Shown in pieces: positions 6,351-61,552 of a stretch of 64,000 nt of DNA. The notes under the pieces were generated by a model, which did no database searches, was not told where the DNA came from, and saw nothing but the letters and a program-made list of their open reading frames with translations. This DNA comes from Mytilus trossulus (taxonomy: Eukaryota). Position 1 is the first letter of the stretch; every line of letters begins with the position of its first letter. The stretch lies in the NCBI RefSeq assembly GCF_036588685.1, contig NC_086386.1, positions 39,742,001 through 39,806,000 on the forward strand. The letters are read 5' to 3'. The translations under genes and the position numbers were made by a program.

Positions 6351-6371
6351 AATTGATATAATTAAAGATAC

Positions 6372-9820: not shown

Positions 9821-12800
9821 ATGGATAAGGGATCACCAAATCCACAGTCGCAGCCTCAACAACAGTACGGCCAACCTCCACAGCAGTATGGTCAGCCTCC
9901 ACAACAGTATGGTCAGCCTCCACAACAGTATGGTCAGCCTCCACAGCAGTATGGTCAACCGCCACAGCAGCATGGTCAACCTCCACAGCAGTATGGTCAA
10001 CCGCCACAGCAGCATGGCCAACCGCCACAGCAGTATGGTCAACAACCCCAACAGCATGTCCAACCTCCAAACCAGTACGGCCAGCCTCCACCAGGTAAAC
10101 AGTCAGCTTTTATATGTTATTTTTGTTTAATTTTCGAACAATTTTCTACATTAATGTCAATAGAATTGTATATTGGTTCGTTTTCCGTTTTATTAAACGT
10201 GTACTACTATAACGACAGTAAATTGTTGAAAGGTGGAAAAAGGACATGAATTTAGAATTTTATCTACTAGTATACGCTTTATTAAAGGTATTAAGTCGGT
10301 CGACATGAAGTTTAGTTAAATGTTAAAATTTTAAATAACTGTTCACCCAAGACTTTTATATGAAAATATTATAGTTGACACTGTACACAAAACAATATAT
10401 CATATGGTTCCAGGTCGTTCTTCCTTCAATAATGACCCAAAACCTGTACCACATAGCCAGCGATACAATGCCCCGAAAAAAACCAAATGTTAAACATTTT
10501 AAAAGAGAAAACTAACGGCTTCATTTGTATACAAAACAATGAACAAAAAAAATAATATGATATAAAGAATCAAAGTGAATAAACTGTGTCTCTTTAACGA
10601 AAAAAACAACCACACAAAAGCTAAAGCGCGATTGAGATCCACACTGACCAAACTTAAACTTTTGTCTTTACAATATTTAAAGAGAACACAAATGACTGAA
10701 CAGCGAACGTCATAATGAGTTAAACCTTCAAATTAAGTAAACCACCATTGATAACAATAATTATGATATATGGTTATAAAAGAATGTAAAATTTCTGACT
10801 ACAAAGAAATGAAATTGTATGAGTTATATTTTTTAAATCCATTACTTTGCATTAGGAAAAAATGTTTGTCGAACAAGAAGTCAAACAAGAAGCACTAATT
10901 GGCTAAACTTAGTACACATGTTCCCTATGATATATGATCTTTCCAATCTAATTAAAATATTGATCTCTGATTACGTTATTAAAATATTGATCTAATCAGA
11001 GATCAATATTTTAATTAGATTGATGATCTTTCTAATTTTAATGCCAAATTAGCGGAGATTTTACCCAAATTTCACGGTTCACTGGACATAGAAAATTATA
11101 GTGTGGGTGCATCCGTGTACTTGGGACATATTTTGAATACAGGTATTATACCTGAAAATTGGACTTCTGGTATTATTAAACCAGTTTTCAAAAACAAGGG
11201 TTGTAAAATTGATCCTGATAACTATAGAGCAATTACGCTCATCAGTTGCCTTGGGAAACTTTTCACATGCATTTTAAATACTAGACTGAATATTTTTTCT
11301 AATGAACTGAATATTATATCTGAGAACCAGACTGGATTCCGTAAGGGATATTCTACACAAGATAATATTTTTGTATTACATGCACTTATTGAACTGTATT
11401 TTTCTTTTGGGAAGAAACTCTTTTGTACATTTGTGGATTTTAGAAAGGCATTCGATACTGTTTGGCGTACAGGGCTGTGGAAAAAATTACAAAAAAGTGA
11501 AATCAAAGGGAAATGTTTTAAAGTTGTGTATAATATGTACAGTGGCATTAAGTCTTGTGTTCAATTTAATGACTCTCAGTCAGAATTCTTTCCATGTCTA
11601 ACAGGTGTTAGACAGGGGACCTGTTAGACAGGGGGAGAATTTATCACCTTTTCTCTTCTCGATCTTTTTAAATGATCTTGAAGACTATTTTTGTCAGCTT
11701 GATGGACTTCCCTTAGAATTAGTTAAAGAGAAACTTGAAAGTGAATTACATATTTTTTATAAAATTTTCATTGTATTATATGCTGATGACACAGTTATCT
11801 TAGCAGAGAGTAAAGATAGTTTACAAAAAGCACTTGATGTATTTCAGTCTTATTGTTCATTGTGGAAACTACAAGTAAATGTAAATAAAACCAAGGTTAT
11901 CATCTTTTCTAAAAGAAAAGTAAACCACAATTTAAGTTTTACATTACAAGGTCATATTCTTGATATTGTAGATACATACCCTTACCTAGGTGTTATATTT
12001 AAATATAATGGTACATTTATTGAGACAAAAAAAAACCTTGTAGAACAAGCAGAAAAGGCAATGTTTTGTGTTTATAAACTTATCAGAAATGAGTCTATAC
12101 CTGTTGATATCCAATTAAAGCTTTTTGATTCGATGATAGAACCAATTTTATTGTATGGTTCAGAAATCTGGGGATAGTACGAAAACCTCAAAACTATTGA
12201 GCAAATCCATTTGAAGTTTTGTAAAAGAGTACTCAAAGTAAGGAACACTACGCCAAATTTTATGGTTTTAGGTGAGCTTGGGAGATTTCCCCTCGAAATT
12301 AAAGTTAAACTTAGAATGGTATCATTCTGGACAAGACTTGTACAAAATGATACTAAACTAAGTAGTATTTTATATCAACTGATGTTATCCTTACAAAGTA
12401 AAACTAAAAATACCTTCAAATGGATTAAATATGTAGAAACTATTTTTGATGAAGTTGGGATGAGTTACATTTTTAGCTCACCTGGCCTAAAAGGCCATGT
12501 GAGCTTTTCTCATCACTTGGCGTCCGTCGTCGTCGTCGTCTGTCGTCGTTAACAATTTTTCAAACATCTTCTCCTCTGAAACTACTGAATGGATTTGAAT
12601 GAAACTTAGCATGATTGTTCCTTAGATTATCCTGCACAAAGTGTGTGCTTTGATTTATGATCCGTCAAAAAACATGGCCGCCGTTACTTAAAATAGAACA
12701 TAGGGGTCAAATGCAGTTTTGGCTTATATCTCAAAAACAAAAGCATTTAGAGCAAATCTGACATGTGGTAAAAATGTTCATTAGGTCAATATCTATCAGC

Positions 12801-15800
12801 CCTGAAATTTTCAGATGAATCAAACAACCAATTGTTGGGTTGCTGCCACTTAATTGGTAATTTTAAGGAAATTTTGCAGTTTTTGGTCATTATCTTGAAT
12901 ATTATTATAGATAAAGATAAACTGTAAACACCAAAAATGATCAGCAAAGTAAGATCTACAAATAAGTTAATATGACCAAAATTGTCAATTGACCCCTTGA
13001 GGGGTTATTGTCCTTTAATGACAATTTTTCACAATTTGTTCATCATATTTGCTAACTTTAAAAAATCTTCTCCTCTAAAACTACTCAACTAAATTCAACC
13101 AAACTTCAACTGAATGATCAGTAGGGTGTATAAAATAAAGTTTGTGCTTTATTTTCTATTTCGTCAAAAAACATGGCCGTCATGGCTAAAAAAAGATCAC
13201 AGGGTAAAATGCAGTTTTTGGCTTATATCTCAAAAACTCCAGCATTTAGAGCAAATAAGACAATATGTTAAAGTATTTATTAGCTCAAGGTCTACCTGTC
13301 CTGTAATTTTCAGATGAATTGGGTAACTGGTTTTTCAGGTATAATGCCCCTGAATTGATGATTTTAAAGAAATTTTGCAGTTTTTGGTTATTATCTTGAA
13401 TACTATTATAGATACAGATCAACTGAACATTTAAATAAATTGAAAAGCCAAAATAATCACTGATGAGAGATTTAACCAAAAAAATTAAGGTGAGCGATTC
13501 AGGCTCTTGAGAGCCTCTTGTTAAAAACCAGTATGCATTTTGTGATAAAATTGTTGTGAAGCAAATTTTATGTGATCAGTTTATACAAAAGTGGTATAGT
13601 GATATACAAAGTTCCTCCCGTGGCCTCTTTTATTCGATGTTCAAAAAACAGTTTTGTTTGGAAAATTACTTATTGAGACTTAGTGAGTTTAATCGAACGT
13701 GGTTAACCAAACTGCGTACATCTAATTTACATTTACCTATAGAAACTGGTCGTTGGTTCAATATCCCAAGGGAAGAAAGAACATGTAACTTATGTACAAA
13801 TGGTATTGGAGATGAATTCCATATTATGTTTATATGTAAAAATGAAAATATTGTTTTATTAAGAAACAAGTACATACCTATGTACTACACAGCTCACCCG
13901 AGCATTATCAAGTTTGAAGGTTTACTCTCTTATTGTAATACTGAACTATACAAAAAGCTATCATTGTTCATCAGAAAAGTTAATGTATTTCTTTGATTTA
14001 TGTCATATCGATCCATATATATTGTATATCTTTTTCTTTATAATCATTCTCTCTGTTTGGTTCTAATGAGCTGTATATATTGATTTAAATATGTTTAATC
14101 GTTCTTCTGTCATGTTGTTTGCATATATTGTATTATATATTTGACCTCATGTTACACGTTTATATGTGTCTGAGTGTTTTCTAATAAATCGTTAAATCGT
14201 TAAATCGGGACACATTCTTGTTTTAATTAGATGGACATTTAGACTAAACAATAAAGAACAGTTCACTTTTACTCTGCTCAAATAAGAAAAAGAAAATGCC
14301 TACCTACCTACCTACCCAACCACTGTCTTTAACTTTGATAAGGAATTGAGCAAACCTACATCATTTTTAAGTGTGGCCTGGTCATCTTCTTAATTGATAT
14401 TTTTTACCGAAAAAAAGGTACGAAAATGCAAACACTGTATTTCTAAAATAGAACTAAATATCCCAAATGCCATATACCTCAGAATTGGAAAAACATATGC
14501 ACATATTCCGTTATAACATTATAGATAAAATATATTTTTTAAATAAGGAGATGGTATAATGGCAAATGAGAAAATAATGCATCACAAACCAAAAGACGAG
14601 AAGCTGATTGTACGGTATGGGATTTGCTCATTGCCGTAGCGTCATGATTAACTATAATTGTGTTCATCATCCCTCATAGTCGAAGACCTCATTGTGACAT
14701 ACATTTTATGTACATGCTTGCCATCCTTTGGTAACTGTTGGTTATTGCTCATTGTCGAAGGCCTCATGGTGACCTATAGTTGCGTACATCATTGTCATTA
14801 TTAGTATCTGTTGATTACTGCTCATTGACAATTATACCACATTTCCTTATTTTTATATTGAACTTTCATTGTTTCATTACAAGATTTCAAGATTTCAAGA
14901 TTTTATTGTACACTCTGACAGTTTACACGGTTACAAGAGGCAGATATACATAATATACAGCTTGACAGAAGTGGTATAAGATTTGTATAATAACAGAATA
15001 AAATTGAAATAAACATATATACAGGTCAATTGAATATAGGTCATCAAACACACCGTAACATACGGTTGTTTGACACGTGATTTAAACGATCAAAACAAAT
15101 TCACATAGCATGACATACATACATATATATATATTTAATTAATTAATATGATTAATTGGATTATAACACACAACTTGAATTAGGTAAGTACTAGACAGTT
15201 TCTTTGATCAAAAATACTTCATGATTTTTTGCAAAAATAATGCGACATTATTGAGTACTTTTATATTACAATAGTATAGCAAACCAAAGAGCTTGTCCTC
15301 TGTTGGATTAAAAAAATAATATCTTGGTATATGCATTTTTCTAATTCTTGCAATATTAGGGTTACAACATACTAGCAGATAATGAAATTCATTTCCTATC
15401 ACCCCCATTACAAGCACACATACAACACAATATCCTAAATATTACAGATTCATGTTTTGTACATTTTAATATATTCACAGCTTACGGTGGTGGGCAGCAG
15501 CAACAGACGTCAACAGTTGTGGTTGGACAGCCGCAGACTTTAGTGTTACAACAAACATACAGAGATTCACCAGTACGTACGACGTGTTCATCATGCAATG
15601 CAGATGTAATGACAGCCATTTCATTTGAAGTAGGAACGATGGCTTGGATAGTGGCGGGATGTCTCTGTATATTTGGGTATGCTATATTGAATGAATAATA
15701 AAACACCATATTCGACTAGTCAGACAAGTTCAACCAACAAAATGCTACAGCATTAAATTTTCAAAGTAAATAGATATAAAAAGATGTGGTATGAGTGCCA

Positions 15801-17229
15801 ATTTTACTCGATCTTCATCAAAGTCACAATTTGTCAAAAGTATACACGAAGCCTCTTTCAGCTATATATCTGTGATGGTATCGACAATAAAATTCAAAGA
15901 TCCATTTTGAAAAAAGGGGTCCAGATGAACATGCCAGACTTATATGTACACCATACCATCATTCCAATACACTAAGTATAGTGGACTATTTGTGCCGAAT
16001 AGTATCCGAGAAACAGAACGTATCATGAAAACTAAACATGTCTGCTCTTTTGTCGGGTTGTTGTCTCTTTGCCACATTCCCCATTTCCATTCTCAATTTT
16101 CTTGACAAAGGAACCATGATTAATGAGCTCTGTCAGACAAATATTTACATCTTCCAATCATATCATACACTTGGCATATTGAAGTATTGGCCATAGTACA
16201 TAAGAGTGGACTAGATCTCAAAAATATAGTATTGACAATTGAACCATGAAAATTCGGTCATGATAAAACGCCAAACGAAAACCACTGCCACCGGATTATC
16301 ATCGCTAAGTCTCGCTTTCTGCGAGTTTGTCTGAAGCGAGAGAGAAACTGAAAAACTAAAAAAAAAAAAAAAAACAACAACAAAAACATGCACTCACATA
16401 ATAAGAATTAAAATATAAAACTGAGATAAGGCGCACACAGTCTGTTTGTGTACCTTGGGTATAGAAAATTATTTGAATTTAAATTGATAAATGTTTTGAA
16501 CTCAGAAATTCAAACCCCCGTTAAATATATATATTCTATACCCAAGGTACACAAACAGACTGTGTGCGCCTTATCTCAGTTTTATATTTTAATTCTTATT
16601 ATATATTTATATATTTATGTCCTTCACTTATATATGAATGGTAGGTGGTTTTAGATCTTAGTATTGAGAAAAATAAATTTGTCTATAAATTGTTTTCAAT
16701 CAATTATTAAAATTATTCAATCATTTATTGAAGTTATTCAATCAATTATTAAAATCATTGAAATAAATTACTTTGCCGTTCAAGGTACATCGTATCCAAT
16801 CTATCTAAATACCATTGCATACTTCTAAAGTGCATTTGGTTAAATGTACCCGATTTACCATATATCATGGTTGAACATTGGGGTCTAATCAAGGATTTTA
16901 AATTAGGGGACTAAAGCGTATATTTCCGTATATTTCCCCCGAGCGAAGAAAGTAAATACAAAAGTTTTGAAGAAAAATTATAGAAATATTCTTTATTAAG
17001 CAAAGAACAACCCATATACCTTTTTCAAAATTAAGGAGGGCACAACGTCACACATACCAGGCCCCGTCTTAATCCACCCCTTAACATTGTATAATCATTT
17101 ATTTGCCTGTTTTTTTTTTGTAGATTTTGGCTTTGTTGTTTTATTCCATTCTGTGTTGACGGCTGTAAGGATGTTGTTCACACTTGTCCAAACTGTAACC
17201 ATATGGTGGGAAGGTTCAACAGAATGTGA
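9821..17229 (+). CDS. LITAF: LITAF-domain protein 1, 191 aa; join(9821..10094,15481..15676,17124..17229)
   Basis: GT-AG junctions give a 576-nt open frame: MDKGSP..(QQYGQPP)x11..[67 protein letters not shown]; AATAAA ~130 nt after the stop. The symbol denotes family, not orthology. Confidence 0.92.
10944..11022. mobile_element. 79-bp mini inverted-repeat element
   Basis: 30-bp TIR CAATCTAATTAAAATATTGATCTCTGATTA; flanking direct repeat ATGATCTTTC; a solo end recurs at 35883-35912. Confidence 0.7.
11129..14206 (+). mobile_element. 5'-truncated LINE (RTE-X/CR1-group-like RT) in intron 1 of gene 1
   Basis: ORFs 11103-11627, 11605-12177, 12211-12470 and 13556-13996 ([47 protein letters not shown]); 3' tail (TAAATCGT)n; probable TSD GGGACA. 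Confidence 0.9.
12473..13522 (+). mobile_element. Helentron-associated (HINE/DINE-like) element nested in the LINE
   Basis: Starts TTAGCTCACCT, (GTC)n microsatellite, subterminal inverted GGTGAGC, 3' hairpin GAGGCTC-type (AGGCTCTTGAGAGCCT), inserted in a T run; LINE coding sequence resumes after it. Confidence 0.85.
14884..15405 (-). mobile_element. LINE 3' end fragment
   Basis: ORF with [11 protein letters not shown] motif; (AATCTTGA)n tail; TSD CATTACAAG at 14875-14883 and 15406-15414; absent in the gene 2 intron. Confidence 0.82.
16398..16602. mobile_element. MITE with ~70-bp inverted arms
   Basis: ATAATAAGAATTAAAATATAAAACTGAGATAAGGCGCACACAGTCTGTTTGTGTACCTTGGGTATAGAA and its reverse complement; only the left arm survives in the gene 2 copy (~26744-26810). 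Confidence 0.75.
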
Positions 17230-19052
17230 TAAAATGACAATGTTTTAAAACACAGCACCAGAGCATTTATATTTTATAATATGAATGAACAGTATAAATT
17301 AAGAGCGCTAGCAAGCTTTTAGACAATTGTATTAACGTATATGGACATTTCTTTAAATAAAAGCAATTATAATTTTGTAGACGTTTTCCTGTACATATAT
17401 CTCTTGTGTAGAGTTGTCAGTCTATCATGCCACATCTACTCAGTAGTTTATATACAACCTATTGATTTTCTCTGTTAAAACATTTGTATTATGTCTGATG
17501 ATTACTACCCATAATTTAATTGCTCAAGCACATAATCAATTTATTTACAATTCATCAGTGACACAAGCAGTTTAAATATAGCACCGAAATGTTATCATGT
17601 AATAAGATTCCGAGTATAAAAAGAGACTGTAATGAACTTTTTTTTAGAAAAACTCGCGTCTTCTGTTTCTGTATTTGTTCTGTTGAGTCACATGTTGATT
17701 GGTTGTGCAGCAAACGCTGTCATAGTTGTGATGTTATGCTATTGTTTCAAAATAAGGGAGAAGTTTGGATCCATTAAAACGTTTAATCCCTCTGCAGGAA
17801 TTTGATGTACACTAGTTGTCAATTGTTTATGTAATTTATACGTGTTTCTCGTTTCTCGTTTTTTTTTATATAGATTAGACATCTGTTTTGCTGTTTACGA
17901 GTACAGTAGCTGCATGTTCAGATAAGAACTTATCGAGTCGACATTTATTGATTAAACTCAGGTGATATTAAAATAATGTTTAACTAGTTCTATTTCAACA
18001 AATTATATCACAAATAAGTAAAGAGTGTTTTTTTTCTTTGAATTTCAATTTGGTGTTGCAATACTTTTTTCCATGTGTATATATTTCAAAAATACAATAT
18101 TATAATAAATAAATTTGTTAAAACAGAAAACAGATCCATAATACAGAGAAATGCAATATAATTAAAATACAAACAAAAACATCGAAAAAAGGAGGGGGTG
18201 GGGAAAAAATGTCCTATCTCAAAGTGCCTATGGCACAAATGATCCTCCGCATTCATCGTATGAAAATAATATGATATAATGTGCTTTGTTTGTTAAATTT
18301 TTTTATTATTCAAAATCTATAACAAAGAATAAATTGACTGGAATTTATATCATCTCAAATTATCTATACAATTGAATTTCAAGGGTAAAAAAATATAAAT
18401 CAGTATACGCAAAAAATGGTTGTGTTAGAAACTGCTCTTTTAGTCAATTCTGAGACATCATATATACGGTATGATAGTCCCAGTCTTCACGTCAAATGAA
18501 TCTGTATTGCAATCAGACTGAATGAAACCATGCATGCTGTGTTTTTTTAATATTGTTAGCATGTCTATCCGAAACTAGTATAACACTGTGTTATAGTAGA
18601 CACATTGTGACTCTTTCATTAAGCACAGTTCACCATGCTGCTTTCAATAGTTTTGTCAAATTGTAAAAACTCAGTATGCAGTGGCGGTTCTAGGGTCCAG
18701 AGGTTTAAACCACATTTTAACGACTCGAATTACTGCTTTTGAATAGAAACATATGCATGGTTGCACCCCCCCCCCCCCCAATAAAAATAAAACCGCGCAC
18801 GCACACACAGTTATCTTGGGTTGAAAGCCGTTTTTCAAAACTTGCTGGATCCTCCCCTGTCAGTATTGCATATATGTCTATTGCGTAATGCTGTGTCACA
18901 GTCTAACAGACTTATATTTATATTCAAATAAACTCTGTTTGAACAATATGATAGTATAGTCTCGGTTGATAGCATTTCAACTTCAAATCATTGGTTTTTA
19001 AATCGGACATATTTCCTTTGACCCAATCTATATCTAAACCGGCTTGATAAAT

Positions 19053-22000
19053 ATGGATAAGGGATCACCATATCCACAGTCGCAGCCTCAACAACAGTAC
19101 GGTCAACCTCCACAGCAGTATGGTCAGCCTCCACAACAGTATGGTCAACCACCACAGCAGTATGGTCAACCGCCCCAACAGTATGGTCAACCGCCCCAAC
19201 AGTATGGCCAGCCACCAGGTAAGAAGTCAGCTTTTATATATTGTTTTTTTTTTTATATTTTGAACCATTTTGTACAGTTATGTTGAATTAGAATTGTATA
19301 TTGTTTCGTTTTCCGTTTTATTAAACTTGTACTACTATAACAACAGAAAAATGTTGAGAGGTGAAAAATAGGGACATGGATTTGTTTTTATCTACTTGTA
19401 TACACTTTATTAAAGGTATTATGTCGGTTCGTCGACATGAAATTTATCAAATATTCAAGTTTTAAATACTGTTCATCCCAACCATTCAGATGAAAATATT
19501 AAATATGACACTGTTTAATGCAATATATTGAATGGAACAATTGTGTTCCTCTTTCAACAATGAGCAAGACCTTTACCGCATTTATACTCGTCAGCAATCA
19601 AATAAATTTCAAACAGTTCAAATGAGAAAACTAACTGCCTGATTTATGCATAAAACAATGAACGAAACACAGATATGATATCAAGCAATACAGTGTGTCA
19701 TTGTAAAAATAAAAAGAACTCAAAAGCAAAAGTGCGTTTGAGATCCATACCGACCAACTTAAACTTATTCCTTTATTCAATGGGGGAAAACTAACTGAAC
19801 AATGTACGTCATATGATAATGAGTTTAAACCTCCAAAATTAACCACCATTGCTGACAGTATAATTATGATATATTATGGCTACATAAGAATTAAAAATTT
19901 AATGCGATATAGAAAGGAAATTATATGAAGACTGTGTTATAACTTTAAAATCAATTACTTTACATAATGACACATTACTTGTTGAACAAGAAGCAATAAA
20001 TGGTCATTCACTATATATTCGCACAACATCCTGTCCACAAGTTAACAATTTTTTTTTTCTTTCTGTGACGTATTAAATTTATAATAAGATCCATTTTGTT
20101 ACAACCTGTGATCAATTTTATTTGGCAATCGCCAATGGCAGTCAGCAGGGTTAAAGAACATCAGTTGTTCGACCCGTTAGTCAAATGCGTTTTGTTTAAA
20201 TATACTTTTTCACTCTTTTGGTCTTTTGGAAAATGTTGTTTGTGCTGTTTTTAGACCCTTCTACAACGAAATTTGTTTGACATGCACACGTATAAAAATT
20301 GCGGTTTTTATCCAACGCAGTCATAGGTTTGAACGTAGTTTTCAATTTAGACTCGTTTATATTTTTTGTTTGGGCATGTATCATATTTTCCCTCCGGTTT
20401 ATATGATCCGTTCATCCTATATATTGACTCTTAAAATTCAAGAGTTAATCTAAAAATGAGGGTACTTTCTCTAAAAATGAGGGTGCTTTTTATATGGCCT
20501 TCCAAATACCGTTTCGATCCCTAACATCACTGAAGAGACATTTATTGTCGAAATCCGGATATGGTGTACTAAAGAAATATTGACACCGAATGTTTGTGGC
20601 ACAACATCCTGTCCACAAGTTAACAATTTTTTTTTTCTTTCTGTGACGTATTAAATTTATAATAAGATCCATTTTGTTACAACCTGTGATCAATTTTATT
20701 TGGCAATCGCCAATGGCAGTCAGCAGGGTTAAAGAACATCAGTTGTTCGACCTGTTAGTCAAATGCGTTTTGTTTAAATATACTTTTTCACTCTTTTGGT
20801 CTTTTGGAAAATGTTGTTTGTGCTGTTTTTAGACCCTTCTACAACGAAATTTGTTTGACATGCACACGTATAAAAATTGCGGTTTTTATCCAACGCAGTC
20901 ATAGGTTTGAACGTAGTTTTCAATTTAGACTCGTTTATATTTTTTGTTTGGGCATGTATCATATTTTCCCTCCGGTTTATATGATCCGTTCATCCTATAT
21001 ATTGACTCTTAAAATTCAAGAGTTAATCTAAAAATGAGGGTACTTTCTCTAAAAATGAGGGTGCTTTTTATATGGCCTTCCAAATACCGTTTCGATCCCT
21101 AACATCACTGAAGAGACATTTATTGTCGAAATCCGGATATGGTGTACTAAAGAAATATTGACACCGAATGTTTGTGGCACAACATCCTGTCCACAAGTTA
21201 ACAATTTTTTTTTTCTTTCTGTGACGTATTAAATTTATAATAAGATCCATTTTGTTACAACCTGTGATCAATTTTATTTGGCAATCGCCAATGGCAGTCA
21301 GCAGGGTTAAAGAACATCAGTTGTTCGACCTGTTAGTCAAATGCGTTTTGTTTAAATATACTTTTTCACTCTTTTGGTCTTTTGGAAAATGTTGTTTGTG
21401 CTGTTTTTAGACCCTTCTACAACGAAATTTGTTTGACATGCACACGTATAAAAATTGCGGTTTTTATCCAACGCAGTCATAGGTTTGAACGTAGTTTTCA
21501 ATTTAGACTCGTTTATATTTTTTGTTTGGGCATGTATCATATTTTCCCTCCGGTTTATATGATCCGTTCATCCTATATATTGACTCTTAAAATTCAAGAG
21601 TTAATCTAAAAATGAGGGTACTTTCTCTAAAAATGAGGGTGCTTTTTATATGGCCTTCCAAATACCGTTTCAATCCCTAACATCACTGAAGAGACATTTA
21701 TTGTCGAAATCCGGATATGGTGTACTAAAGAAATATTGACACCGAATGTTTGTGGCACAACATCCTGTCCACAAGTTAACAATTTTTTTTTTCTTTCTGT
21801 GACGTATTAAATTTATAATAAGATCCATTTTGTTACAACCTGTGATCAATTTTATTTGGCAATCGCCAATGGCAGTCAGCAGGGTTAAAGAACATCAGTT
21901 GTTCGACCTGTTAGTCAAATGCGTTTTGTTTAAATATACTTTTTCACTCTTTTGGTCTTTTGGAAAATGTTGTTTGTGCTGTTTTTAGACCCTTCTACAA

Positions 22001-25000
22001 CGAAATTTGTTTGACATGCACACGTATAAAAATTGCGGTTTTTATCCAACGCAGTCATAGGTTTGAACGTAGTTTTCAATTTAGACTCGTTTATATTTTT
22101 TGTTTGGGCATGTATCATATTTTCCCTCCGGTTTATATGATCCGTTCATCCTATATATTGACTCTTAAAATTCAAGAGTTAATCTAAAAATGAGGGTACT
22201 TTCTCTAAAAATGAGGGTGCTTTTTATATGGCCTTCCAAATACCGTTTCGATCCCTAACATCACTGAAGAGACATTTATTGTCGAAATCCGGATATGGTG
22301 TACTAAAGAAATATTGACACCGAATGTTTGTGGCACAACATCCTGTCCACAAGTTAACAATTTTTTTTTTCTTTCTGTGACGTATTAAATTTATAATAAG
22401 ATCCATTTTGTTACAACCTGTGATCAATTTTATTTGGCAATCGCCAATGGCAGTCAGCAGGGTTAAAGAACATCAGTTGTTCGACCTGTTAGTCAAATGC
22501 GTTTTGTTTAAATATACTTTTTCACTCTTTTGGTCTTTTGGAAAATGTTGTTTGTGCTGTTTTTAGACCCTTCTACAACGAAATTTGTTTGACATGCACA
22601 CGTATAAAAATTGCGGTTTTTATCCAACGCAGTCATAGGTTTGAACGTAGTTTTCAATTTAGACTCGTTTATATTTTTTGTTTGGGCATGTATCATATTT
22701 TCCCTCCGGTTTATATGATCCGTTCATCCTATATATTGACTCTTAAAATTCAAGAGTTAATCTAAAAATGAGGGTACTTTCTCTAAAAATGAGGGTGCTT
22801 TTTATATGGCCTTCCAAATACCGTTTCGATCCCTAACATCACTGAAGAGACATTTATTGTCGAAATCCGGATATGGTGTACTAAAGAAATATTGACACCG
22901 AATGTTTGTGGCACAACATCCTGTCCACAAGTTAACAATTTTTTTTTTTCTTTCTGTGACGTATTAAATTTATAATAAGATCCATTTTGTTACAACCTGT
23001 GATCAATTTTATTTGGCAATCGCCAATGGCAGTCAGCAGGGTTAAAGAACATCAGTTGTTCGACCTGTTAGTCAAATGCGTTTTGTTTAAATATACTTTT
23101 TCACTCTTTTGGTCTTTTGGAAAATGTTGTTTGTGCTGTTTTTAGACCCTTCTACAACGAAATTTGTTTGACATGCACACGTATAAAAATTGCGGTTTTT
23201 ATCCAACGCAGTCATAGGTTTGAACGTAGTTTTCAATTTAGACTCGTATATATATATATATATATATAAAAGTCTATAAAAAGGACCAACCAGCAAATTT
23301 AGTAATTTACTATGTACCGGATCGTCTAGAATAGGCGATACTATGCATGCAGATAAGGAAAAAAATATATCAGTCTAAAGATTTGCACAACGGTACTGAT
23401 ATAAGGTGTTATTAAACGAAAATGTTGTTATAAAATCGTGTTGACAAATATTTCGGCTCAACAAATGGCCTTCTTCTTGTGTCACAAGTTTTAACAATAC
23501 TCCTAAATGTATACGGTATAGGGTTTGATCGTTGTCGAAGGCCTCGCTGTGACCTATATGTGTGTACATCATTGCTCATTGTTGAAGACCTAATGGTTAC
23601 CAATAGCTATGTGCATCCTCGCCATCTTTTTACTGTTGGTTATTGTTCATTGTCGAAGGCCTTATTGTGACCTATAGTTGGGTACATTCTAACCGTTCTT
23701 TGGACACTGTTGCATAGTTATATTGGTCATTGTCGAAATCCACATGGTGACCTATAGTTGTGTAAACCCTCACCAGCCTTTGGTTTGGTAACTTTTGATA
23801 ATTGCTTATTGACAATCAAATCACATCTCCTAATTTTATATTGAGCTTTCATTATGTGTTATTGGTTAACTGTACACACAAACACACGACACGACACAAA
23901 GTCCTAAATATTACAGATTTTTAAGAATCATGTTTTGTACATTTTAATATATTCACAGCTTATGGTGGTGGACAGCAGCAACAGTCGTCAACAGTTGTGA
24001 TTGGACAGCCGCAGACTTTAGTGTTACAACAAACATACAGAGACTCGCCAGTACGTACGACGTGTCCATCATGCAATGCAGATATAATGACAGCCATTTC
24101 ATTTGAAGTAGGAACGATGGCTTGGGTAGTGGCTGGTTGTCTCTGTATATTTGGGTATGCTATATTGAATGAATAACGCACCATATTCGCATCGGCGGAT
24201 CCAGGGAAAATGGGGAAATTGGTTGATTATTAGTATATAGGGAATCACTTAGCATGACTGGAGCACCTTCCCCCCTTTAGGTCAGTCAGCGCTCCCCCCT
24301 TTATGAAAAGTTCTGGATACGCCACTGATTCGTCTTGTAAGATATGTTCTGTAATCAAAATACTTCAACAGGAAATTTTCAAAGTAAATAGATATAAGAA
24401 GATGTGGTATGATTGCCAATTATAGACAACTCGATCTCCTTCCAGGTCACAATTTTTCAAAAGTACACGGAGCCTATGTGTATTAATATATCACTGGCAA
24501 TCGTGTTGTATCAGCTATATACTCTGTGATGAGCACTGGCAATCGTGTTGTATCAGCTATATATCTGTGATGATATCGACACAAGACCTAGCCAAAAAAA
24601 ATCAAAGATCACTTTTGCAAAAAAGGGTCCAGATGTATACATGCCAGACTTATAAATGTAAATGTACACTATACCAATACACAAAATATAAAGTGGACTA
24701 TTTTGTGGATAAAATCCAAGAAACATAACTTAAAATGAAAACTAAACATGCCTGCTCTTTGGTCGGTTGTTGTCTCTTTGACACATTCCCCATTTCCATT
24801 CTCAATTTTATTGACAAATGAACGATAAATGAGCTCTGTCAGACAAATATGTACATCTTCCATTCATTCTATACACCTTGACATATTGAACTATTGGCCA
24901 TTGCACACAATAGTGGACTAAAATTTAACTACATTCAAGTCCATCCGCTCCACAGAGAGTCATATAGTACATAAACATATCACAACCACATCAAAGCTTC

Positions 25001-27205
25001 TTGTGAACATTTGAAGGTCACTACTATGTATTGGCTACCTTAACTACATGTACACAAGCAACCAATTAAATATCGTTTTATCTCGGCTTCTAGTAAGTGT
25101 TCTACAACTAATCTTTCAGTGCTTTTAACAAGTTCATTAACTACTATTAAAGAACTTATCATACACTATTGTAATAAAATATATGAACATAGTGGTATAT
25201 AAACTATATTTGGAGTGTAAGAAATTCTTTGGATGTTTTAGATAAAGTACGTGCTTTTGATGGTCCTTTTGATTCCGTGGACAGTTTTGATTTTTCTACT
25301 CTTTACACTACACTTCCACACTATCTTATTAAACAAAGGTTTCCTATTTAATGAAATGGTCGTTTGGTTAGTTAAGCTGAATGCAAATATATTTTCTGCA
25401 ACTCATTTAAACCCTTCTCCTCTAATGAGAAAGGTAAATACGCTAGATATACTTACTGGAGGTGTGATGAGATCATTTAAGCTGTTAATTTTCTTCTTGA
25501 TAATATTTATGTACGTTTCGGCAACAAAGTTATTCGACAGGTTGTAGGTATCCCCATGTGCACTAATTGTGCCCTTTAATAGCAGATTTGTTTTTGTACT
25601 GTTACGAATCAGTTTGTGACTAAACTCAGTAAAGACTCGTCGAAATTGCATTTAATTGATAAATTCAACAACATTTACCGTTATCTTGATGATATTTTTT
25701 CGTTAAATAATCAAGAATTTTCTCAATATACTGCTGAAATTTACCCCAAGGAACTTACTTTAAATGAATCAAATTTATACGGTAATAACTGTCCTTTCCT
25801 GGATTTAGATATTTAGGTTTTAAACGGGAAACTCCATACTAAAATTTACGACAAAAGGGACGTTTTTTCGTTCCCTATTGTTAATTTTCCATTTTTAGAT
25901 GGTGAGGTGCCTTTGGCACAATCTTACGGTGTTTATATTTCACAGCGCGTTCGCTATGCCCGTGTCTTGTGACGTTTTTGATTTTAACGAACGCAATCTA
26001 TGTATTACTGGTAAATTATTAAACCAGGGATATCGTTACCATAGATAACTTAAAACCTTTACGAAATTTTTCCATAGATATAAAGATTAGGTTTTGAAGT
26101 TTGGTTGTACCTGTAAAATACTTTTTTCAAACGGGATAGCACATCCTCATTTTTACGGAAGTGTTGTTAACCGGACCCGAAAATTTGTCCATCTGATGAG
26201 TTAAGCCTTTTTCAGCTGCTTTTTATAGTTCGACTGTTATACCACTGTACCAGGTTAGGGGAGGGTTTATATATGTGCCTGTCCCAAGTCAGGCGCCTGT
26301 AATTCAGTGGTTGTCGTTTGTTAATGTGTTACATATTTGTTTTTCGTTCAATTTTTATATAAATAAGGCCGTAAGTTTTCTCCTTTAAATTGTTTTACAC
26401 TGTCATATTGGGGCCTTTTATAGCTGACTATGCGGTTTTGGATTTGCTCATTGTTGAAGGCCGTACGGTTACCTATAGTTGTTAATGTATGTGTCATTTT
26501 GATCTCTTGTAGACAGTTGCCTCATTGGGAATCATACCACATCTTCTTTTGTTATAAATCACAAAAATATAGTATTGACAATTGAACCATGACAATTAGG
26601 TGACGATAAAACGCCAGACGAAATTTACCGCCACCGGATTATCATCGCTATGTCTTGCACTCTGCGATTTTGTCTGAAGCGAGAGAAAAACTGAAAAAAA
26701 AAGAAAAAAAAAAACCAACAAAAAAACCCCAACAATACTCACATAATGAGAATTAAAATATTAAACTGAGATTGGCCGCACACAGTCTGTTTGTGTACCT
26801 TAGGTATGGAAATTATTTCAATTTACATTAATAATTGTTTTGAAATTTATCAATATAGACTAAGTTTTATATATGTAACACCTTAACAATAGCAAGTTAG
26901 GGGATGCAAACTTATATTTTCGACGAGCTGAGCGAGTCAAAAACAAAATTTGAAGTAAATTTATAGAAATGTTCTTTATTAATCAGAGGACAACACATGT
27001 ATTGCAAATTTTAGGAAGGCGGATAGCTGCCACGCCCCTGCCTGAATCCGCGCATGAACATTGTACAATCAATCATTTGTCTGTCTTTTCTTGTAGGTTA
27101 TGGCTCGGATGTTGTCTGATTCCATTCTGTGTTGACGGCTGTAAGGATGTTGTTCACACTTGTCCAAACTGTAATCATATGGTGGGAAGGTTCAGCAGAA
27201 TGTGA
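19053..27205 (+). CDS. LITAF: LITAF-domain protein 2, 156 aa; join(19053..19218,23959..24154,27097..27205)
   Basis: 471-nt open frame with GT-AG junctions: MDKGSPYP..(QQYGQPP)x6 [60 protein letters not shown]. Confidence 0.92.
20021..23247 (+). repeat. 578-bp tandem array, ~5.6 near-identical copies, retrozyme/PLE-like
   Basis: Unit start GCACAACATCCTGTCC recurs at 20021, 20599, 21177, 21755, 22333 and 22911; ends in a (TA)n run; each full unit has a hammerhead core. Confidence 0.97.
20524..20567 (+). ncRNA. Minimal type I hammerhead ribozyme (copy 1 of 5; others 21102-21145, 21680-21723, 22258-22301, 22836-22879)
   Basis: ACATCA-CTGAAGA-GACA tttat TGTC-GAAA-TCCGGA-TA^-TGGTGT: stem I, CUGANGA, stem II, GAAA, palindromic short stem III, AUA cleavage triplet. 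Confidence 0.85.
24190..24327. mobile_element. MITE, CAGTGGCGGATCC-type TIR with 5-bp TSD
   Basis: ATTCG on both flanks; empty site with a single ATTCG in the gene 1 paralogous intron (~15710). Confidence 0.8.
24925..26185 (+). mobile_element. Penelope-like retroelement reverse transcriptase remnant
   Basis: Disrupted frames contain MYWLP.LH..PIKYRFISASSKCST, GIPMCTNCA, YRYLDDIF and PFLDLDI motifs typical of PLE RTs; absent from the gene 1 paralogous intron. Confidence 0.8.
26186..26555. repeat. Abundant short interspersed repeat (copies or fragments also near 14610, 23510, 39035, 58980, 60760)
   Basis: Recurrent core TTTGCTCATTGTTGAAGGCCGTACGGTGACCTATAGTTG...CTCATTGGCAATCATACCACATCTTC; class not determined. 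Confidence 0.75.
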
Positions 27206-28479: not shown

Positions 28480-28523
28480 ACGCTAGACGCGCACTTCGTC
28501 TAAAGAAGACTTATCAGGAACGC
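28480..28523 (-). ncRNA. Degenerate hammerhead ribozyme relic (same family as 42921)
   Basis: Reverse strand reads GCGTTC-CTGATAA-GTCT tcttt AGAC-GAAG-TGCGCG-TC-TAGCGT; both core boxes are mutated. Confidence 0.6.
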
Positions 28524-33320: not shown

Positions 33321-33479
33321 CAGGCGCGGATCCAGCCATTTAAAAAGGGGGGGGGGGTCCCAACCCAGAGTAAAGGGGGGGGGGTCCAACATTATGCTCC
33401 CATTCAAATGCATTGATCAGCCAGAAAAAAGGGGAGTTCCAACCCCCGGACCCCCCCCCCCCTTTTGGATCCGCCACTG
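33321..33479. mobile_element. MITE with 5-bp TSD inserted in the minisatellite
   Basis: CAGGCGCGGATCC...GGATCCGCCACTG flanked by GTCAG. Confidence 0.78.
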
Positions 33480-34082: not shown

Positions 34083-37000
34083 ATGGAGAAAGGATCACCG
34101 TACCCGCAACAGCAGCCACCACCCCAACAGTACAATCAACCTCCACCAGGTAAGGTGTTAATAATACATAGAAAAGTATAAATATATATAGATCAAACTG
34201 TCATATTTTGAAGTGATGTCTTTAACACCCGTATAATGTAATGTTTTTAAAGGGTCCGTGGCTAGGCATTCGTACCCGTCTTAAAAGAATTTTAACTTCA
34301 AAGTTGAGTGACATGTGTTTTTTAACAATTAATTATAGTATTACGTAGCTCATAGAAAAGTATAAATATATATTGATCAAACTGTCATATTTGGAGGCGA
34401 TATCGTTAACACCCGTACAATGGTTAATTTAAAAATGGTCCGGGGCTATGCATGTCACTTAATACATTTGTACATGCCTTTGTCTGAATAAGACGAAATT
34501 GAATGATATTTGTGTTTTCTGTAAAAAAATCGTATTTCAAAAACAAGTATCAATTTCATGGTTATTTCTGGATGTATTGCAAATCTATTTTAATTTTACA
34601 AGGTGTGACTTTTTTTCTGTAACTTTATTAAAGCCGTTTATTGATTCTGTGTTTTTTGGTCCTTGAAACTTTGTATCTATTAAACTTTTAAGCAAAAGTG
34701 AATAAATTATAAATGGTAGGATATTGATCATAAACAATTAGGAAAAACTGAAAGTAGCAAATGTACTATTACTTGGAATGTAGGTATTTTGTAATGGTTG
34801 TTTGCGTACGACCTCATGTTACCTGTTATGTTATGTGTGTCAGTAGCTATAATATACAGAGTTAAAAAGTAGAATCAAGAAATATTGAGTAACACATATT
34901 ATAAGTAACTGTACACTTTAATACAGTGTAAAAGAATTTATTAATAAGATGGTTTATCTTTAATATTCTGTTCTCACACTCAAAACAGATTAAAAAAAAA
35001 ACACAAAAAGAGTGAATCCTTGTACTTATTCTTTATTGATATTTTTTTGTTTGTTTTTAAAGTAAATTCTTCTATAAAGCCTGAAAACCGAAATTGAAAA
35101 AAAAGCTACTGTTCGAAATAGTTCTGTTGACTGATTTTGCTTCAAAATCATAATACTTTAACTCGTATGTTAATAAGCATAATAAGGCTTTAACGAGATC
35201 CTTAATATTTTCTATAAACAAAATTACAATAGTAGTCCAGAAGTAAAATGTGTTTCTAGGTATAGTAAGCAAGTCCATATACTCATAAATGTACTAGAAC
35301 AATCACAAACAATCTCCTGTGGAACAAGTCTGTCTCAGGGAAATAAATCCTTTGAAATTGAGTTCATATACAAAATGAAAAATTAATTGGAATTTGTTTA
35401 AACAGAAACGTCATTCCTTGCTAAATATAAAACATGGTCTAAATGTGAAGCCAAATACAAGGAACTGTTAACTTAAAAGAAGCAAAAAATAAATACTATA
35501 TATAGGAATGCTGTTTACTGTTTGAAATAAGGTTTCTTGGTTACAAAAGTCACAATAGAGTTTCGAGGTGGATCATTGGTGCGAAAGTTAGTATGTCACT
35601 GTAAAATTAGGGTAAATTGGCGAGGGACCAAAAAAATAACCTTACAACGGGCCATCATTGACCCCAAACAGTGTTTGCAAGGGTCCTCTGATGTAACTTT
35701 CCCATTCTAACCGAACATGACTGCAAGATTTTGCAGTCAGACGGATGAATAACTTGGGCGAAGGTTTGTTTTCCGGTTGGAAGTGATGATTAAATTTCTA
35801 TATACCCCAATCAACCCTTGGAGTCTTATGTGTTAATCTTTATAAATAACTTTACATGTATAATTTTTTTTGTAGTAGAGCGTAATCAGAGATCAATATT
35901 TTAATTAGATTGAATAATTTTGCTTTCAGCCTATGCACCGCCTGGTCAGCAGTCTCAAGCCACAGTCGTGGTTACACAGCAGCCAAATGTTTTGCTCCGG
36001 CAGAACTTTCGTGAGGTACCAGTGCGTGTGACTTGTCCATCATGTAGCGCTGATATCATGACCGCAACGCAATTTGAAATCGGAATGCTGACCTGGTTAG
36101 CGGCTGGTATGATATGCCTGTTCGGGTAAGAACACTGTATTTTACAGTCAATTATTCATATAAATTAGGGGTCGATTTGGGTTGAAGTTTTCTTGTTAAT
36201 ATGTCTATTGATTTTTAATTATTTTTATTTTTGTTTGGGTGTTATATTTTCTCTTATTTTGGGCTCTATTTACCGTAATTCAATTATGATTTGAATGCTT
36301 CTTTTTGTAACTTTATTTGGGTGTAAAAAGCGTTGATTGAAGTAAATTTGTATGAATCGTTTATCTTCCAAAGAAATCTCAGTACCATTAGTCAACTTTT
36401 CATGCGTGTTTTTGATATTAACTTTTTTTTTTTTTTTTATATCAAACTATAGTAAATGACTCATACATGTTCAGAGACTACGGTATATCCAATGCAATAG
36501 AATCGTACATACATGTATATTGACCAGCCAAACGCAATAATGTTCCTGCAGGAACATTTAGACCAGTTTTCTGTTGACTTATTTATAGCAGACAATGAAA
36601 AAAATCTGTTAATTATGTGTCAAATGATTTAAGGTAGATCACCAGTATATATTTTTTGAGACCGAATTTTTTTATAATTTGCCAAAATGAAGATTTTACT
36701 ATGCTCTTTTCAAAAATTTAATAAAAAGTATGGGTCACCGTGCTATTTTTCAAGCTATGAGTCGTTGAAAATTGCCAAAATTTGGTTAGTTTGTTCATGA
36801 AAATAAAAAGAAAAAATGGTGTCACCGAACTTGTTTTCTTGATACAAATAAATATAAAAAATTTCCCTATTAGCCCAGTATAAGTTTTGTACTAAAAGAG
36901 TTTTCTCCCCTTTAATGGCTCATTTGAAAAAAATGATTTTAAACCCAAAGAAAATGATATTTTGTTAAAATATTTTGTATAATACAATTAATTAACAAGT

Positions 37001-37296
37001 TTTCTTTAAATAGAAAAAACTTCTAACAATTAAATTGCAAATCTGTCTCCAAATTTGCAGATTTAGGCAAATAACTAGACCGATTTTGTACTGTGATTGT
37101 ACAATCCAAGATGGCGGTATACCATCAATCTACCTTAAATGTATGAACAAATGATGACGTCAAATTTCTCTTTTTTTCTTTCAGGTTATGGCTTGGATGT
37201 TGTCTGATTCCATTTTGTTTAGACGCCTGTAAAGATGTCGTCCACACATGTCCAAATTGTAACCACGTGGTTGGAAAGTATAGCAAATTGTCATGA
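34083..37296 (+). CDS. LITAF: LITAF-domain protein 3, 124 aa; join(34083..34149,35930..36125,37185..37296)
   Basis: 375-nt open frame: [85 protein letters not shown]. Confidence 0.93.
36633..37134. mobile_element. Non-autonomous element with TTAA TSD (Kolobok-like)
   Basis: TTAA|GGTAGAT...ATCTACC|TTAA; short TIR only. Confidence 0.62.
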
Positions 37297-40684: not shown

Positions 40685-45459
<4,775 letters not shown>

Positions 45460-58300: not shown

Positions 58301-61300
58301 TTCAATATGAATTTACATTTTCATGGCTAGCTATTTAAATCTGTGTGCTATGTACTTAACAACTGCAACTATATTTTTATTGATTAATGTCAATGATATA
58401 TATGAAATAATAGTATGCATGTAGATTCATTAACAGTTTGAATTTCAAGTTTACTACACATACACTGGAAGACTTCACACTAAAATTAAAATATGATATA
58501 GAAAAAGTTAAAAAAAATCGGTCAACATGCTAGGCTGTCAGTGTAATGGTGAGCTATTATAACGCAGCAATAGACCTAAACTACAAAATTTATAAATGTA
58601 TGATGCTTGTTCAATGATATTCAGCGAGGCAAAATGGAGAAAACAAAAGTGGAAAAAAAAGGATGCAAAGCTACAGATATTGTCTGCGCTTATTCTGTTC
58701 CAAGTCAAGGAATTCGTCTGTGGTTGATACTTTCTTTGTTTTTTTTTTAAATTGGTGTTGATGGACACATGTTTCTCAGTAATTCTCAACATGTCGAGAA
58801 TTGTGGCAATTTTTTATTTGTTTCCAAAGGCAGTTGCTTTGGCATGTACAATTAAGTATTCTAATAACATATCACAGTTTTATAAATTGTGTAAGTATTT
58901 AATTATCACTCTAACTAATGGATGCAAGTCCAATCATACCGTCCCAATTTAAAGGAAGGGATATGGGCGCTCGCTAACATGTTTTACTCTGAATGTGCCT
59001 GTTCCTAATGAGGATCATGTTACTCAGTGGATTTCGTTGGTTGCTGTGTAGCATATTTGTTTATCGTTCGTTATTTTGTACAGAAATCAGGCCTTTAGAT
59101 TTTTGATTGAATTATTTTACTTTTGTCATTTCGAGGCCTTTTATATCTTACTGTGCGGTATGGGTTTTACTCATTGCTGAAAACCGTACGTTGACACATA
59201 GGTGTTTATTTCTGTATCATTTGGTCTCTTGTGTATAGATGGCTTATTGACAATCATACTACGTCTCATTTTTATATAAGACATAATTTTTTTTTTTTTT
59301 ATTGTGAAATTTGATTTAAATACACGCAATTTAAATATTTATGAAATTGTCTCCCTAAGCATTTTGTATGAATCGAGCTTTATAGGTTATTCAACACACA
59401 AAAGATCAGAAAAAATAATATAAAATATATGTTTTTGGTGCTTGTCTTTTTTTCAAATTTAATATATGGTTGTCATATAAATCAAAGACATGTTTATATG
59501 TTGTAGCCCCGCCTCCTTATGGTCCACCAAGCTACCCACAAGGCCAGACACAACAGACGATAGTTGTAGCACAACCAACGGTATTGGTGTCCCCACAGTA
59601 CGGCGACTCTCCGGTAAGGATACAGTGTCCGGCATGTAAAGCAGATGTGATGACTTCAACTTCTTGTGAACCTGGGATGCTGGCGTGGATTATTTGTTTA
59701 GTTTTGTTTTTCACTGGGTATGCTGTAAATTCAGAAATTATTGCGCGCATTTATTATTGCGATTGTTGAATATTGAACACAGATCCGATTTGATTATTGC
59801 GATTTCAGGAAAGGTAAAATACAAATTTTGCAAGGGCATTTTTGTGGGGAAAAAACACATATACACCTTATTCTAACATGACGTCCTTCAAACGCTTTGA
59901 GTACACACCCGTGGTAAAATATGAATATATTTCATGGGCTGTTCCCATTGTACCCCCACGTCATATGTTTTTTTAATGAATGAGCGACTCGACGTCATAG
60001 AACAATGACGTCAGAATATAAGCAATTTACGGGAAAATACACGCTTGTGAAACGGAAAATCATCACAACAAGGAAACGTTAACAAATGATGCTAAAATGA
60101 GTTATATTAGCCGTTTTTGTATACATATGAGACATATAAGTACAATAATAATAAGATTAATCTAAAATTATCTAAATATGTTATTATAAATAGTTTAAGC
60201 ATCATCATTTATTCAGTTTGCTCCGTTATTTTACGTCAATTTAATAGTGCGTTAATATATAGGAACGGCAAATAATGCCATCACCTAGAGCGCTTCGATC
60301 CAAAATAATTGCCGTATTTGTCCTATTAGAATCGAAATAATTCATGGGGGCTTGAATATATCTAGATTTTACCACGGGTTGTCCCTTTATGCCGATATTT
60401 TACCCCTCGCTATCGCTCAGGGTAAAATATTTGTCATAAAGGGCCAACCCGTGGTAAAATCACGATATATTCAAGCCCCCATGAATTATTTCTTAAATAT
60501 ATTAACACGTGTCAGTATATTAAAGTATATATGTATATACGATTTTTGGCCGAGACAAGTGCATGTCTGTGAATTAGTTCCATCAAATTGAATGCGCGAG
60601 TTAGAATTTGTCAGCGCATTTTTCGAAAAAAAAAAAAAAATCAGCATCATATGAATAACGGAACAAGTCGGTCAGAAGAAGGACACAGTTTGTTCCCATT
60701 GGAACACCGGTCACTTGTTGAAAACAAGTCATATAAACATATTTGTTTTTCTTTCATTTTTTTTACATAAATAAGGCCGTTAGTTTTCTCGCTTGAATTG
60801 TTTTACATTGTCTTATCGGGGCCTTTTATAGCTGACTATATGCGGTATGGGCTTTGCTCATTGTTGAAGGCCGTACGGTGACCTGTAGTTGAAAGTTATG
60901 GTAGTTTGTAAATTGACATTTTGCTATATTTTCCCATGTATGCAGCATTTATTTATTATGTTTAGTGTGAATGTATTGAGTATAAACATGTGTATACGTG
61001 TATATATGATGTCCTCTTGTACACCTATGTGTCTGATGTTTATTAATAAAGAATTGTCTATTGTCTTTTGTCTACTAGATGTCATTCAATTACAAGTATC
61101 CTCGAATAAGCGTTATTAGTAAAAAAATACTAATCCTTAATGACATTGTTAATATGACCTCTGACCTTGATTGTGTGATTATAGTTTGACCTTGTTTGTG
61201 TGACTATATTTGACTTTGTTAGTAAATATGAATATTTGACCTTATTAGTTAATGTGAATATTTGACATTGTCAATGTAATAATTGACCTTGTTACTTTTA

Positions 61301-61552
61301 AAATGAGAATATTTGACCTTGTCAGTGTGAATATTTGACCATGTCAATGTGAATATTTGACCTTTTTAATATGAGTACATGCATTTGACCTTGTTAATTA
61401 GAGTACTTGACCTTGTTAACACATGTCTGTGATAATATCGTTTCAGGTTCTGGTTATGCTGTATCATCCCCCTCTGTATTGATTCCTGTAAAGATGTAAC
61501 ACACACGTGCCCTAACTGTAGACATGTTGTGGGGAAGTTTAGCCGAATGTGA
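55342..61552 (+). CDS. LITAF: LITAF-domain protein 5, 109 aa; join(55342..55354,59507..59717,61447..61552)
   Basis: Exons 2-3 are clear: APPPYGPPSYPQG..SPVRIQCPACKADVMT..LFFTGFWLCCIIPLCIDSCKDVTHTCPNCRHVVGKFSRM*. The 13-nt first coding exon (CAAAATGGAAGCGCAAG|GTAAGA, phase 1) is less certain. Confidence 0.85.
60335..60492. repeat. ~158-bp hairpin at the end of an unclassified intronic element
   Basis: GAAATAATTCATGGGGGCTTGAATATAT...ATATATTCAAGCCCCCATGAATTATTTC. Confidence 0.75.
61150..61420. repeat. Degenerate ~20-bp minisatellite (ATATTTGACCTTGT core)
   Basis: More than 10 TTGACCTT-like cores immediately upstream of the gene 5 exon 3 acceptor. Confidence 0.75.

What the first reader, a model, noticed from the sequence alone, without database searches (positions are those of the whole stretch)
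9821..61552. Tandem cluster of five intact LITAF/CDIP1-family genes
Five co-oriented genes share intron phases (1, 2) and intact CxxC/HxCxxC zinc ligands, and none is pseudogenised despite heavy TE traffic. They fall into three types: (1,2), (3,4) and 5. Known: LITAF-domain proteins are monotopic endolysosomal membrane adaptors linked to innate immunity and membrane-protein sorting. Inference: lineage-specific expansion with diversified N-termini and membrane segments.
Basis: partly seen in the sequence, partly recalled or inferred. Interest (0 to 1): 0.7.

Follow-up and report, generated by a model that had tools for sequence, protein, structure and literature searches.

The report
Mussel LITAF tandem gene array
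This is a real but ordinary row of six intact mussel LITAF-family genes (five in the window), likely encoding small zinc-stabilised membrane adaptors for endosomal sorting; its one oddity is a 25-base piece of the membrane segment that was likely copied from the sixth gene into the first.

Summary
Confirmed: five co-oriented three-exon LITAF genes (intron phases 1, 2; GT-AG; CxxC and HxCxxC intact). A sixth lies just past the window, and RFC3 sits head-to-head upstream. All six recur, intact and in order, on a second-haplotype contig, so genes 1 and 2 are true paralogs; both also exist in M. edulis and M. galloprovincialis. Selection is purifying: paralog dN/dS 0.09-0.29; allelic changes 26 synonymous to 5 non-synonymous. 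Spliced junctions were seen for genes 1 and 4; support for 2 and 5 is indirect; gene 3 was not tested. It is not special: genes 1, 2 and 4 equal database proteins already named LITAF/CDIP1 homologs, the genome holds at least 27 such loci with two further tandem clusters, and mussel LITAF multiplicity is published. All five carry PPxY and none PSAP, so they likely act as NEDD4-recruiting monotopic endosomal adaptors. One unreported detail: the first 25 bases of gene 1's last exon match gene 6 (24/25), not its sister gene 2, suggesting micro gene conversion in the membrane hairpin. The scan's only earlier LITAF note in this genome concerned an intronic retrozyme elsewhere.

The parts
4337..4423 (-). 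RFC3 first coding exon, head-to-head neighbour 5.4 kb upstream of gene 1
   Evidence: MSLWVDKHRP start with GT donor; weak Rad17 P-loop hit E 0.042; Walker A and SRC exons upstream of the window, found with recalled motifs
4679..17601 (+). approximate gene 1 duplication unit; homology to the gene 2 unit starts at 4679 vs 18096 and ends at 17601 vs 27576
   Evidence: blastn blocks, mostly non-coding, 74-91% identical
9821..10094 (+). gene 1 exon 1: 21-bp repeat encoding about 11 PPQQYGQ-type units
15481..15676 (+). gene 1 exon 2: completes PPAY, CxxC, first half of hydrophobic segment
   Evidence: joint 15675-17123 GT..AG in runs X7 and X18
17124..17229 (+). gene 1 exon 3: FWL-CCF membrane half, HxCxxC, stop
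   Evidence: spliced model identical to P0079
17124..17148 (+). 25-base patch matching gene 6 (24/25), candidate gene-conversion tract
19053..19218 (+). gene 2 exon 1 (about 6 heptad repeats)
   Evidence: an X3 contig stops at the donor with 274 further letters
23959..24154 (+). gene 2 exon 2
27097..27205 (+). gene 2 exon 3 (LWLGCCL type)
   Evidence: model identical to P0088
34083..34149 (+). gene 3 exon 1
35930..36125 (+). gene 3 exon 2
37185..37296 (+). gene 3 exon 3
40685..40751 (+). gene 4 exon 1
   Evidence: contig loose ends in X3 and X2 equal its 3' end
44572..44764 (+). gene 4 exon 2
   Evidence: joint to exon 3 in 4 of 4 runs
45348..45459 (+). gene 4 exon 3; ends YNRL (YxxL-like)
   Evidence: model identical to P0001
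55342..55354 (+). gene 5 exon 1 (candidate, MEAQ)
   Evidence: strong donor, one of two candidates; inside a 127-base run identical between haplotypes, second longest of 277 runs in that block
59507..59717 (+). gene 5 exon 2 (PPPY, PPSY, CxxC)
   Evidence: an X7 contig aligns 59505-59719 with unaligned ends
61447..61552 (+). gene 5 exon 3
   Evidence: an X7 contig aligns 61446-61540

Best explanation
An old tandem array of six intact LITAF-domain paralogs kept by purifying selection, whose products likely work like human LITAF/CDIP1 as zinc-stabilised monotopic membrane adaptors on endosomes. Shown: the genes, their intact motifs, their presence on both haplotypes and purifying selection. Inferred from the family: the hydrophobic hairpin sits in the cytosolic leaflet, clamped by a zinc ion held by CxxC and HxCxxC, and the disordered Pro/Gln/Tyr tail recruits NEDD4-type WW ligases through PPxY for cargo sorting and tubule scission. 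The paralogs likely differ in expression and partners. Genes 1 and 2 arose from one younger duplication of about 13 kb (gene 1 unit), and gene 1 likely took a short membrane-segment patch from gene 6 by gene conversion.
For: Intact models, phases 1 and 2. All six on contig C26, colinear, 27 blocks, 42.0 kb at 93.6% identity. Allelic changes 26 synonymous, 5 non-synonymous; dN/dS 0.09-0.29 in 13 of 15 paralog pairs, 2 saturated. PPxY in 5 of 5 window genes; 19-residue hydropathy peaks 2.15-2.62. AlphaFold of g4: disordered N-terminus, helix-break-helix (74-85, 92-98) between beta strands, block pLDDT 72-89 over the domain. Family mechanism from passages of PMC5095921 and PMC5142333 and the abstract of PMC8353527. 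Expression: joints for g1 and g4. The published M. edulis LITAF qPCR primers span g4's two junctions with 0-1 mismatches, and that transcript is high in gill, digestive gland and hemocytes (PMC3308963 passages). Conversion: g1 matches g6 at 6 of 6 g1/g2 differences in the patch versus 2 of 9 outside (Fisher p 0.007, post hoc); g2's version occurs in M. californianus.
Against: No localisation, zinc binding or partner binding was tested for any mussel protein. None has the P(S/T)AP motif by which human LITAF is predicted to bind TSG101, and g6 lacks PPxY. Against conversion: g1/g2 differences are not significantly clustered alone (p 0.13); the patch is unusually alike at silent sites among g2, g3, g4 and g6 too (4 of 5 vs 8 of 30 columns, p 0.04), which splice-signal constraint could also give; the one-residue-shorter segment recurs in unrelated loci.
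Confidence: 0.8

Rival explanations
1. The array is an immune arms-race locus: membrane hairpins are diversified and shuffled by gene conversion to evade or decoy bacterial pore-forming proteins that bind LITAF inside the membrane.
For: Mammalian LITAF and CDIP1 are host receptors of a bacterial pore-forming toxin reached within the membrane (PMC13524335 passages). g1 and g2 differ most at the hairpin, and the difference is kept across three species. g1 has 4 non-synonymous of 6 allelic changes against 1 of 26 in the other five (Fisher p 0.002, post hoc). A mussel LITAF rises after Vibrio injection (PMC3039611 passages; which paralog is not known).
Against: dN/dS is far below 1 in every measurable paralog pair, and g1's allelic pN (0.009) is below its pS (0.016). 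None of g1's allelic amino-acid changes lies in the hairpin. The hairpin is nearly invariant among orthologs. No mussel pathogen ligand is known to me.
Confidence: 0.1
2. The proteins are LPS-induced transcription factors for TNF-like cytokines, as much of the bivalve literature assumes.
For: Database names and the bivalve papers describe LITAF this way (PMC3308963 passages).
Against: Every copy has the strongly hydrophobic hairpin. PMC5142333 states that consensus has moved to intracellular membranes and shows membrane anchoring.
Confidence: 0.05
3. Gene 1 is a redundant younger duplicate under relaxed constraint, and part of the array is neutral copy-number turnover.
For: g1 has the highest allelic non-synonymous load and a repeat tract that varies in length between species.
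Against: g1 is intact on both haplotypes, spliced in 2 of 4 runs, and retained in M. edulis and M. galloprovincialis; g1-g2 dN/dS is 0.18.
Confidence: 0.1
4. Copies 1 and 2 are uncollapsed haplotypes (assembly artefact).
For: 92% amino-acid identity in the domain.
Against: Both are present on the second-haplotype contig. The g1-g2 shared blocks are 74-91% alike against 96-98% for alleles in that region. Both exist as separate proteins in other species.
Confidence: 0.01

Closest known systems
Mytilus LITAF proteins already in NCBI/UniRef: M. trossulus XP_063413490.1 (g1), XP_063413491.1 (g2), XP_063412945.1 (g4); M. galloprovincialis LPS-induced TNF factor 3 (AHI17293.1) and 5 (AHI17295.1)
   Same: g1, g2 and g4 models are identical to P0079, P0088 and P0001; factor 3 clusters with g4 and factor 5 with g2
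   Different: No identical entry was retrieved for g3, g5 or g6 (my three searches were not aimed at them). The layout of the array and the g1/g6 patch did not appear in my six literature searches.
Human LITAF (SIMPLE) and CDIP1
   Same: Pro-rich N-terminus with PPxY; CxxC, hydrophobic segment, HxCxxC domain (PF10601)
   Different: No P(S/T)AP motif in any of the six; Gln/Tyr heptad repeats in g1 and g2; two genes in humans against at least 27 here. PMC5142333 dates the LITAF/CDIP1 split to jawed vertebrates, so neither name implies orthology.
Metazoan LITAF expansions (PMC5142333 passages; 13 genes in Helicoverpa, PMC13113599 abstract; 24 fragments in M. edulis, PMC3308963 passages)
   Same: Multi-gene expansion with the canonical architecture retained
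   Different: Here the genomic tandem arrangement, both haplotypes and selection are resolved.

Membership tests
LITAF domain family (PF10601) | Pfam zf-LITAF-like above gathering cut-off | tested here: met
   full proteins of g1, g2, g4; single exons of g3 and g5
LITAF domain family (PF10601) | CxxC and HxCxxC zinc-ligand motifs | tested here: met
   6 of 6 genes in the window assembly; no allelic amino-acid change touches them
LITAF domain family (PF10601) | Hydrophobic segment of about 22 residues between the motifs | tested here: met
   hydropathy 2.15-2.62; helix-break-helix in the g4 model
LITAF domain family (PF10601) | Proline-rich N-terminal region | tested here: met
   predicted disordered in g4
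LITAF domain family (PF10601) | Binds one zinc; monotopic topology with both termini cytosolic | not testable with these tools
   shown for human LITAF (PMC5095921 passages)
LITAF/CDIP1-like ESCRT and NEDD4 adaptors | PPxY WW-binding motif | tested here: met
   5 of 5 window genes; absent in g6
LITAF/CDIP1-like ESCRT and NEDD4 adaptors | P(S/T)AP TSG101-binding motif | tested here: not met
   0 of 6; direct ESCRT-I binding is therefore not claimed
Single-origin local tandem expansion | All six genes form one clade among the genome's LITAF loci | tested here: inconclusive
   3 changes on the best tree; clade not rejected, p-AU 0.243; 76 columns
Positively selected immune array | dN/dS above 1 in some region | tested here: not met
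   pairwise domain-wide values 0.09-0.29; site models not run

The most novel reading that the evidence does not exclude
Mussel LITAF arrays swap short membrane-hairpin cassettes between anciently diverged paralogs by micro gene conversion. This yields sister proteins (genes 1 and 2) with the same tails but different intramembrane faces, selected to alter cargo recognition or to escape or decoy membrane-inserting microbial proteins.
Probability: 0.12. Interest if true: 0.6.

Novelty: already known. Interest (0 to 1): 0.2.

Why it matters
Modestly. It gives a clean map of six mussel LITAF paralogs and likely ties the transcript used as an immune marker in M. edulis qPCR to gene 4. It argues that these proteins are membrane adaptors rather than transcription factors. 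Genes 1 and 2 are a natural pair that differ mainly in the membrane hairpin and tail length, which makes the open question of what the LITAF hairpin recognises testable.

Tried and rejected
Haplotype artefact for genes 1 and 2: rejected. Positive selection across paralogs: not found. Clustering test of g1/g2 differences alone: not significant (p 0.13). Cluster monophyly: unresolved in both trees; one search left out three second-haplotype-like rows and one mis-joined model. No RNA holder was listed on record; all 24 runs are guessed RNA. Rfam scan of the window: 0 matches, so no retrozyme hammerhead at gathering score. No significant solved relative by sequence (best E 0.36) or by fold (best E 0.15). 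The representative search with g5 exon 2 gave generic hits at no more than 56% identity, nothing to confirm its exon 1. The other candidate g5 exon 1 at 50480 was set aside for its weaker donor. The first automated model scan was too strict (6 models) and was redone. Joint 19217-15478 in X18 is read as a gene 1 ortholog with a shorter, gene-2-like exon 1, as in the 169-aa orthologs, not as trans-splicing.
Full report
Observation. A six-frame scan found five + strand HxCxxC exons, each preceded by a CxxC exon. First exons were found for genes 1-4 by an ATG-to-donor scan and a 13-base candidate for gene 5. All five models splice GT-AG with phases 1 and 2 and give open proteins of 191, 156, 124, 123 and 109 aa. 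PF10601 passes its cut-off for the full g1, g2 and g4 proteins and for single exons of g3 and g5. A sixth intact gene (138 aa) follows beyond the window. An RFC3 gene lies head-to-head upstream (the RFC3 motifs were recalled).

Artefact test. Contig C26 of the same assembly is colinear with the window: 27 blocks, 42.0 kb, 93.6% weighted identity, with many kilobase indels. I read it as the second haplotype. It carries all six genes intact. The blocks shared by genes 1 and 2 are 74-91% alike, against 96-98% for alleles in that region, and both genes exist as separate proteins in M. edulis and M. galloprovincialis. Homology between the two units begins at 4679 versus 18096, just upstream of the RFC3 start.

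Expression. All 24 listed runs are guessed RNA and kept as contigs; five different runs were laid, four per call. The g4 exon 2-3 joint appears in 4 of 4 runs and contig ends in 2 runs equal the end of g4 exon 1. The g1 exon 2-3 joint appears in 2 of 4 runs. The two LITAF primers of PMC3308963 fit across g4's junctions. One has 1 mismatch to both g3 and g4; the other has 1 (window) or 0 (C26) to g4 and 6 to g3; both have 5 at best on unspliced DNA. That paper (passages seen) reports the transcript high in gill, digestive gland and hemocytes, and 24 LITAF fragments in M. edulis; its Table S6 was not read.

Selection and age. Allelic differences over six genes are 26 synonymous and 5 non-synonymous; 4 of the 5 fall in g1 (Fisher p 0.002, post hoc; g1 pN 0.009, pS 0.016). 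Over the domain, dN/dS is 0.09-0.29 for 13 of 15 paralog pairs and 2 are saturated. dS is 0.19 for g1-g2 and 0.86 or more for all other pairs, including g3-g4 at 1.42.

Context. The genome search gave 69 exon matches from 150 of 270 candidates scored. From the fetched stretches I built 25 further domain models. One was mis-joined and three lie on contigs that look like second haplotypes, leaving 21 plus the six here, so at least 27 loci. Six models lie within about 40 kb on C3 and five within about 110 kb on C7, so this is one of three tandem clusters. The tree neither shows nor rejects one origin for the six (p-AU 0.243). g1, g2 and g4 are identical to proteins that NCBI names LITAF or CDIP1 homologs of Mytilus trossulus, and g4 and g2 cluster with M. 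galloprovincialis LPS-induced TNF factors 3 and 5. PMC5142333 (passages) already notes multiple metazoan expansions.

Mechanism. Shown: motifs, hydrophobic segment, PPxY in 5 of 5 window genes (in g1-g4 a PPAY straddles the exon 1-2 junction), no P(S/T)AP in 6 of 6. Predicted: disordered tail and a helix-break-helix between beta strands in g4. Inferred from human LITAF and CDIP1 (passages of PMC5095921 and PMC5142333, abstract of PMC8353527): a zinc-clamped monotopic hairpin in the cytosolic leaflet of endosomes that recruits NEDD4-type ligases and supports sorting and tubule scission. A role of LITAF in membrane repair after pore formation is recalled, not read here. The receptor role for a bacterial pore-former comes from passages of PMC13524335.

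The one odd detail. Genes 1 and 2 are sisters, yet the first 25 bases of g1 exon 3 match g6 at 24 of 25 (next best of 26 other loci: 18), while g2's first 28 match g3 at 27. At all 6 g1/g2 differences in this patch, including two silent sites and a codon gap, g1 equals g6, against 2 of 9 elsewhere (p 0.007, post hoc). g2's version is the common one and occurs in M. californianus; g1's is fixed in M. edulis and M. galloprovincialis. I put micro gene conversion from g6 to g1 at about 0.6. Against it: the differences are not significantly clustered alone (p 0.13), the stretch is silent-site conserved among several cluster genes, and the shorter segment recurs in unrelated loci. Six literature searches (listings and abstract starts only, open-licence library) showed no description of this array or of LITAF gene conversion; subscription journals are not covered.

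Verdict. Real, intact, expressed at least in part, already annotated, and typical of a known expansion. Interest 0.2.

Noticed in passing
G000:C14:39809834-39821397 (L010-L011): Sixth intact LITAF gene of the array, 138 aa, with GYPQ-type repeats and no PPxY; also intact on C26.
   Followed up: yes
G000:C26:about 404,500-482,500 and 220,146; C17:4.59-4.61 Mb: C26 duplicates this chromosome region as a second haplotype; C17's two LITAF loci pair closely with C8's two. Gene counts from this assembly are likely inflated.
   Followed up: partly
window 20021-23253: 578-bp tandem array (5 full copies at 99.7% or more identity plus a partial one) in gene 2 intron 1; C26 has only about 0.76 kb across this gap.
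   Followed up: partly
window 45764-47965: 2.2-kb insertion in the gene 4 3' region, absent from C26 and skipped by contigs of runs X7 and X2: a polymorphic element, likely in the 3' UTR.
   Followed up: partly
window 61503-61648: 52-bp tandem repeat (2.8 copies) copying the last codons and stop of gene 5 into its 3' UTR; present and diverged on C26.
   Followed up: partly
window 6888-8742 and 11019-13996: Two broken non-LTR retrotransposon (RVT_1) copies, one upstream of gene 1 and one in its first intron, the latter split by a 1-kb insertion absent from C26.
   Followed up: partly
window 28960-33600: 22/24-bp satellite between genes 2 and 3, about 3.5 kb longer than on C26; one public M. galloprovincialis model (P0090) appears to run into such a repeat by mis-annotation.
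   Followed up: no
window 18155-19215: A 1328-base contig of run X3 covers 900 bases upstream of gene 2's ATG and then leaves at the exon 1 donor: long leader or read-through from gene 1; a weak hint only.
   Followed up: no
window 1877-2563 and 3690-4300: Inverted arrays of a 173-177-bp repeat in RFC3 intronic DNA, resembling the two arms of a foldback element.
   Followed up: no
G000:C3:55.66-55.70 Mb; C7:36.80-36.91 Mb: Two further LITAF tandem clusters with mixed orientation; several loci elsewhere (C2, C3) have Arg-rich C-terminal tails.
   Followed up: partly
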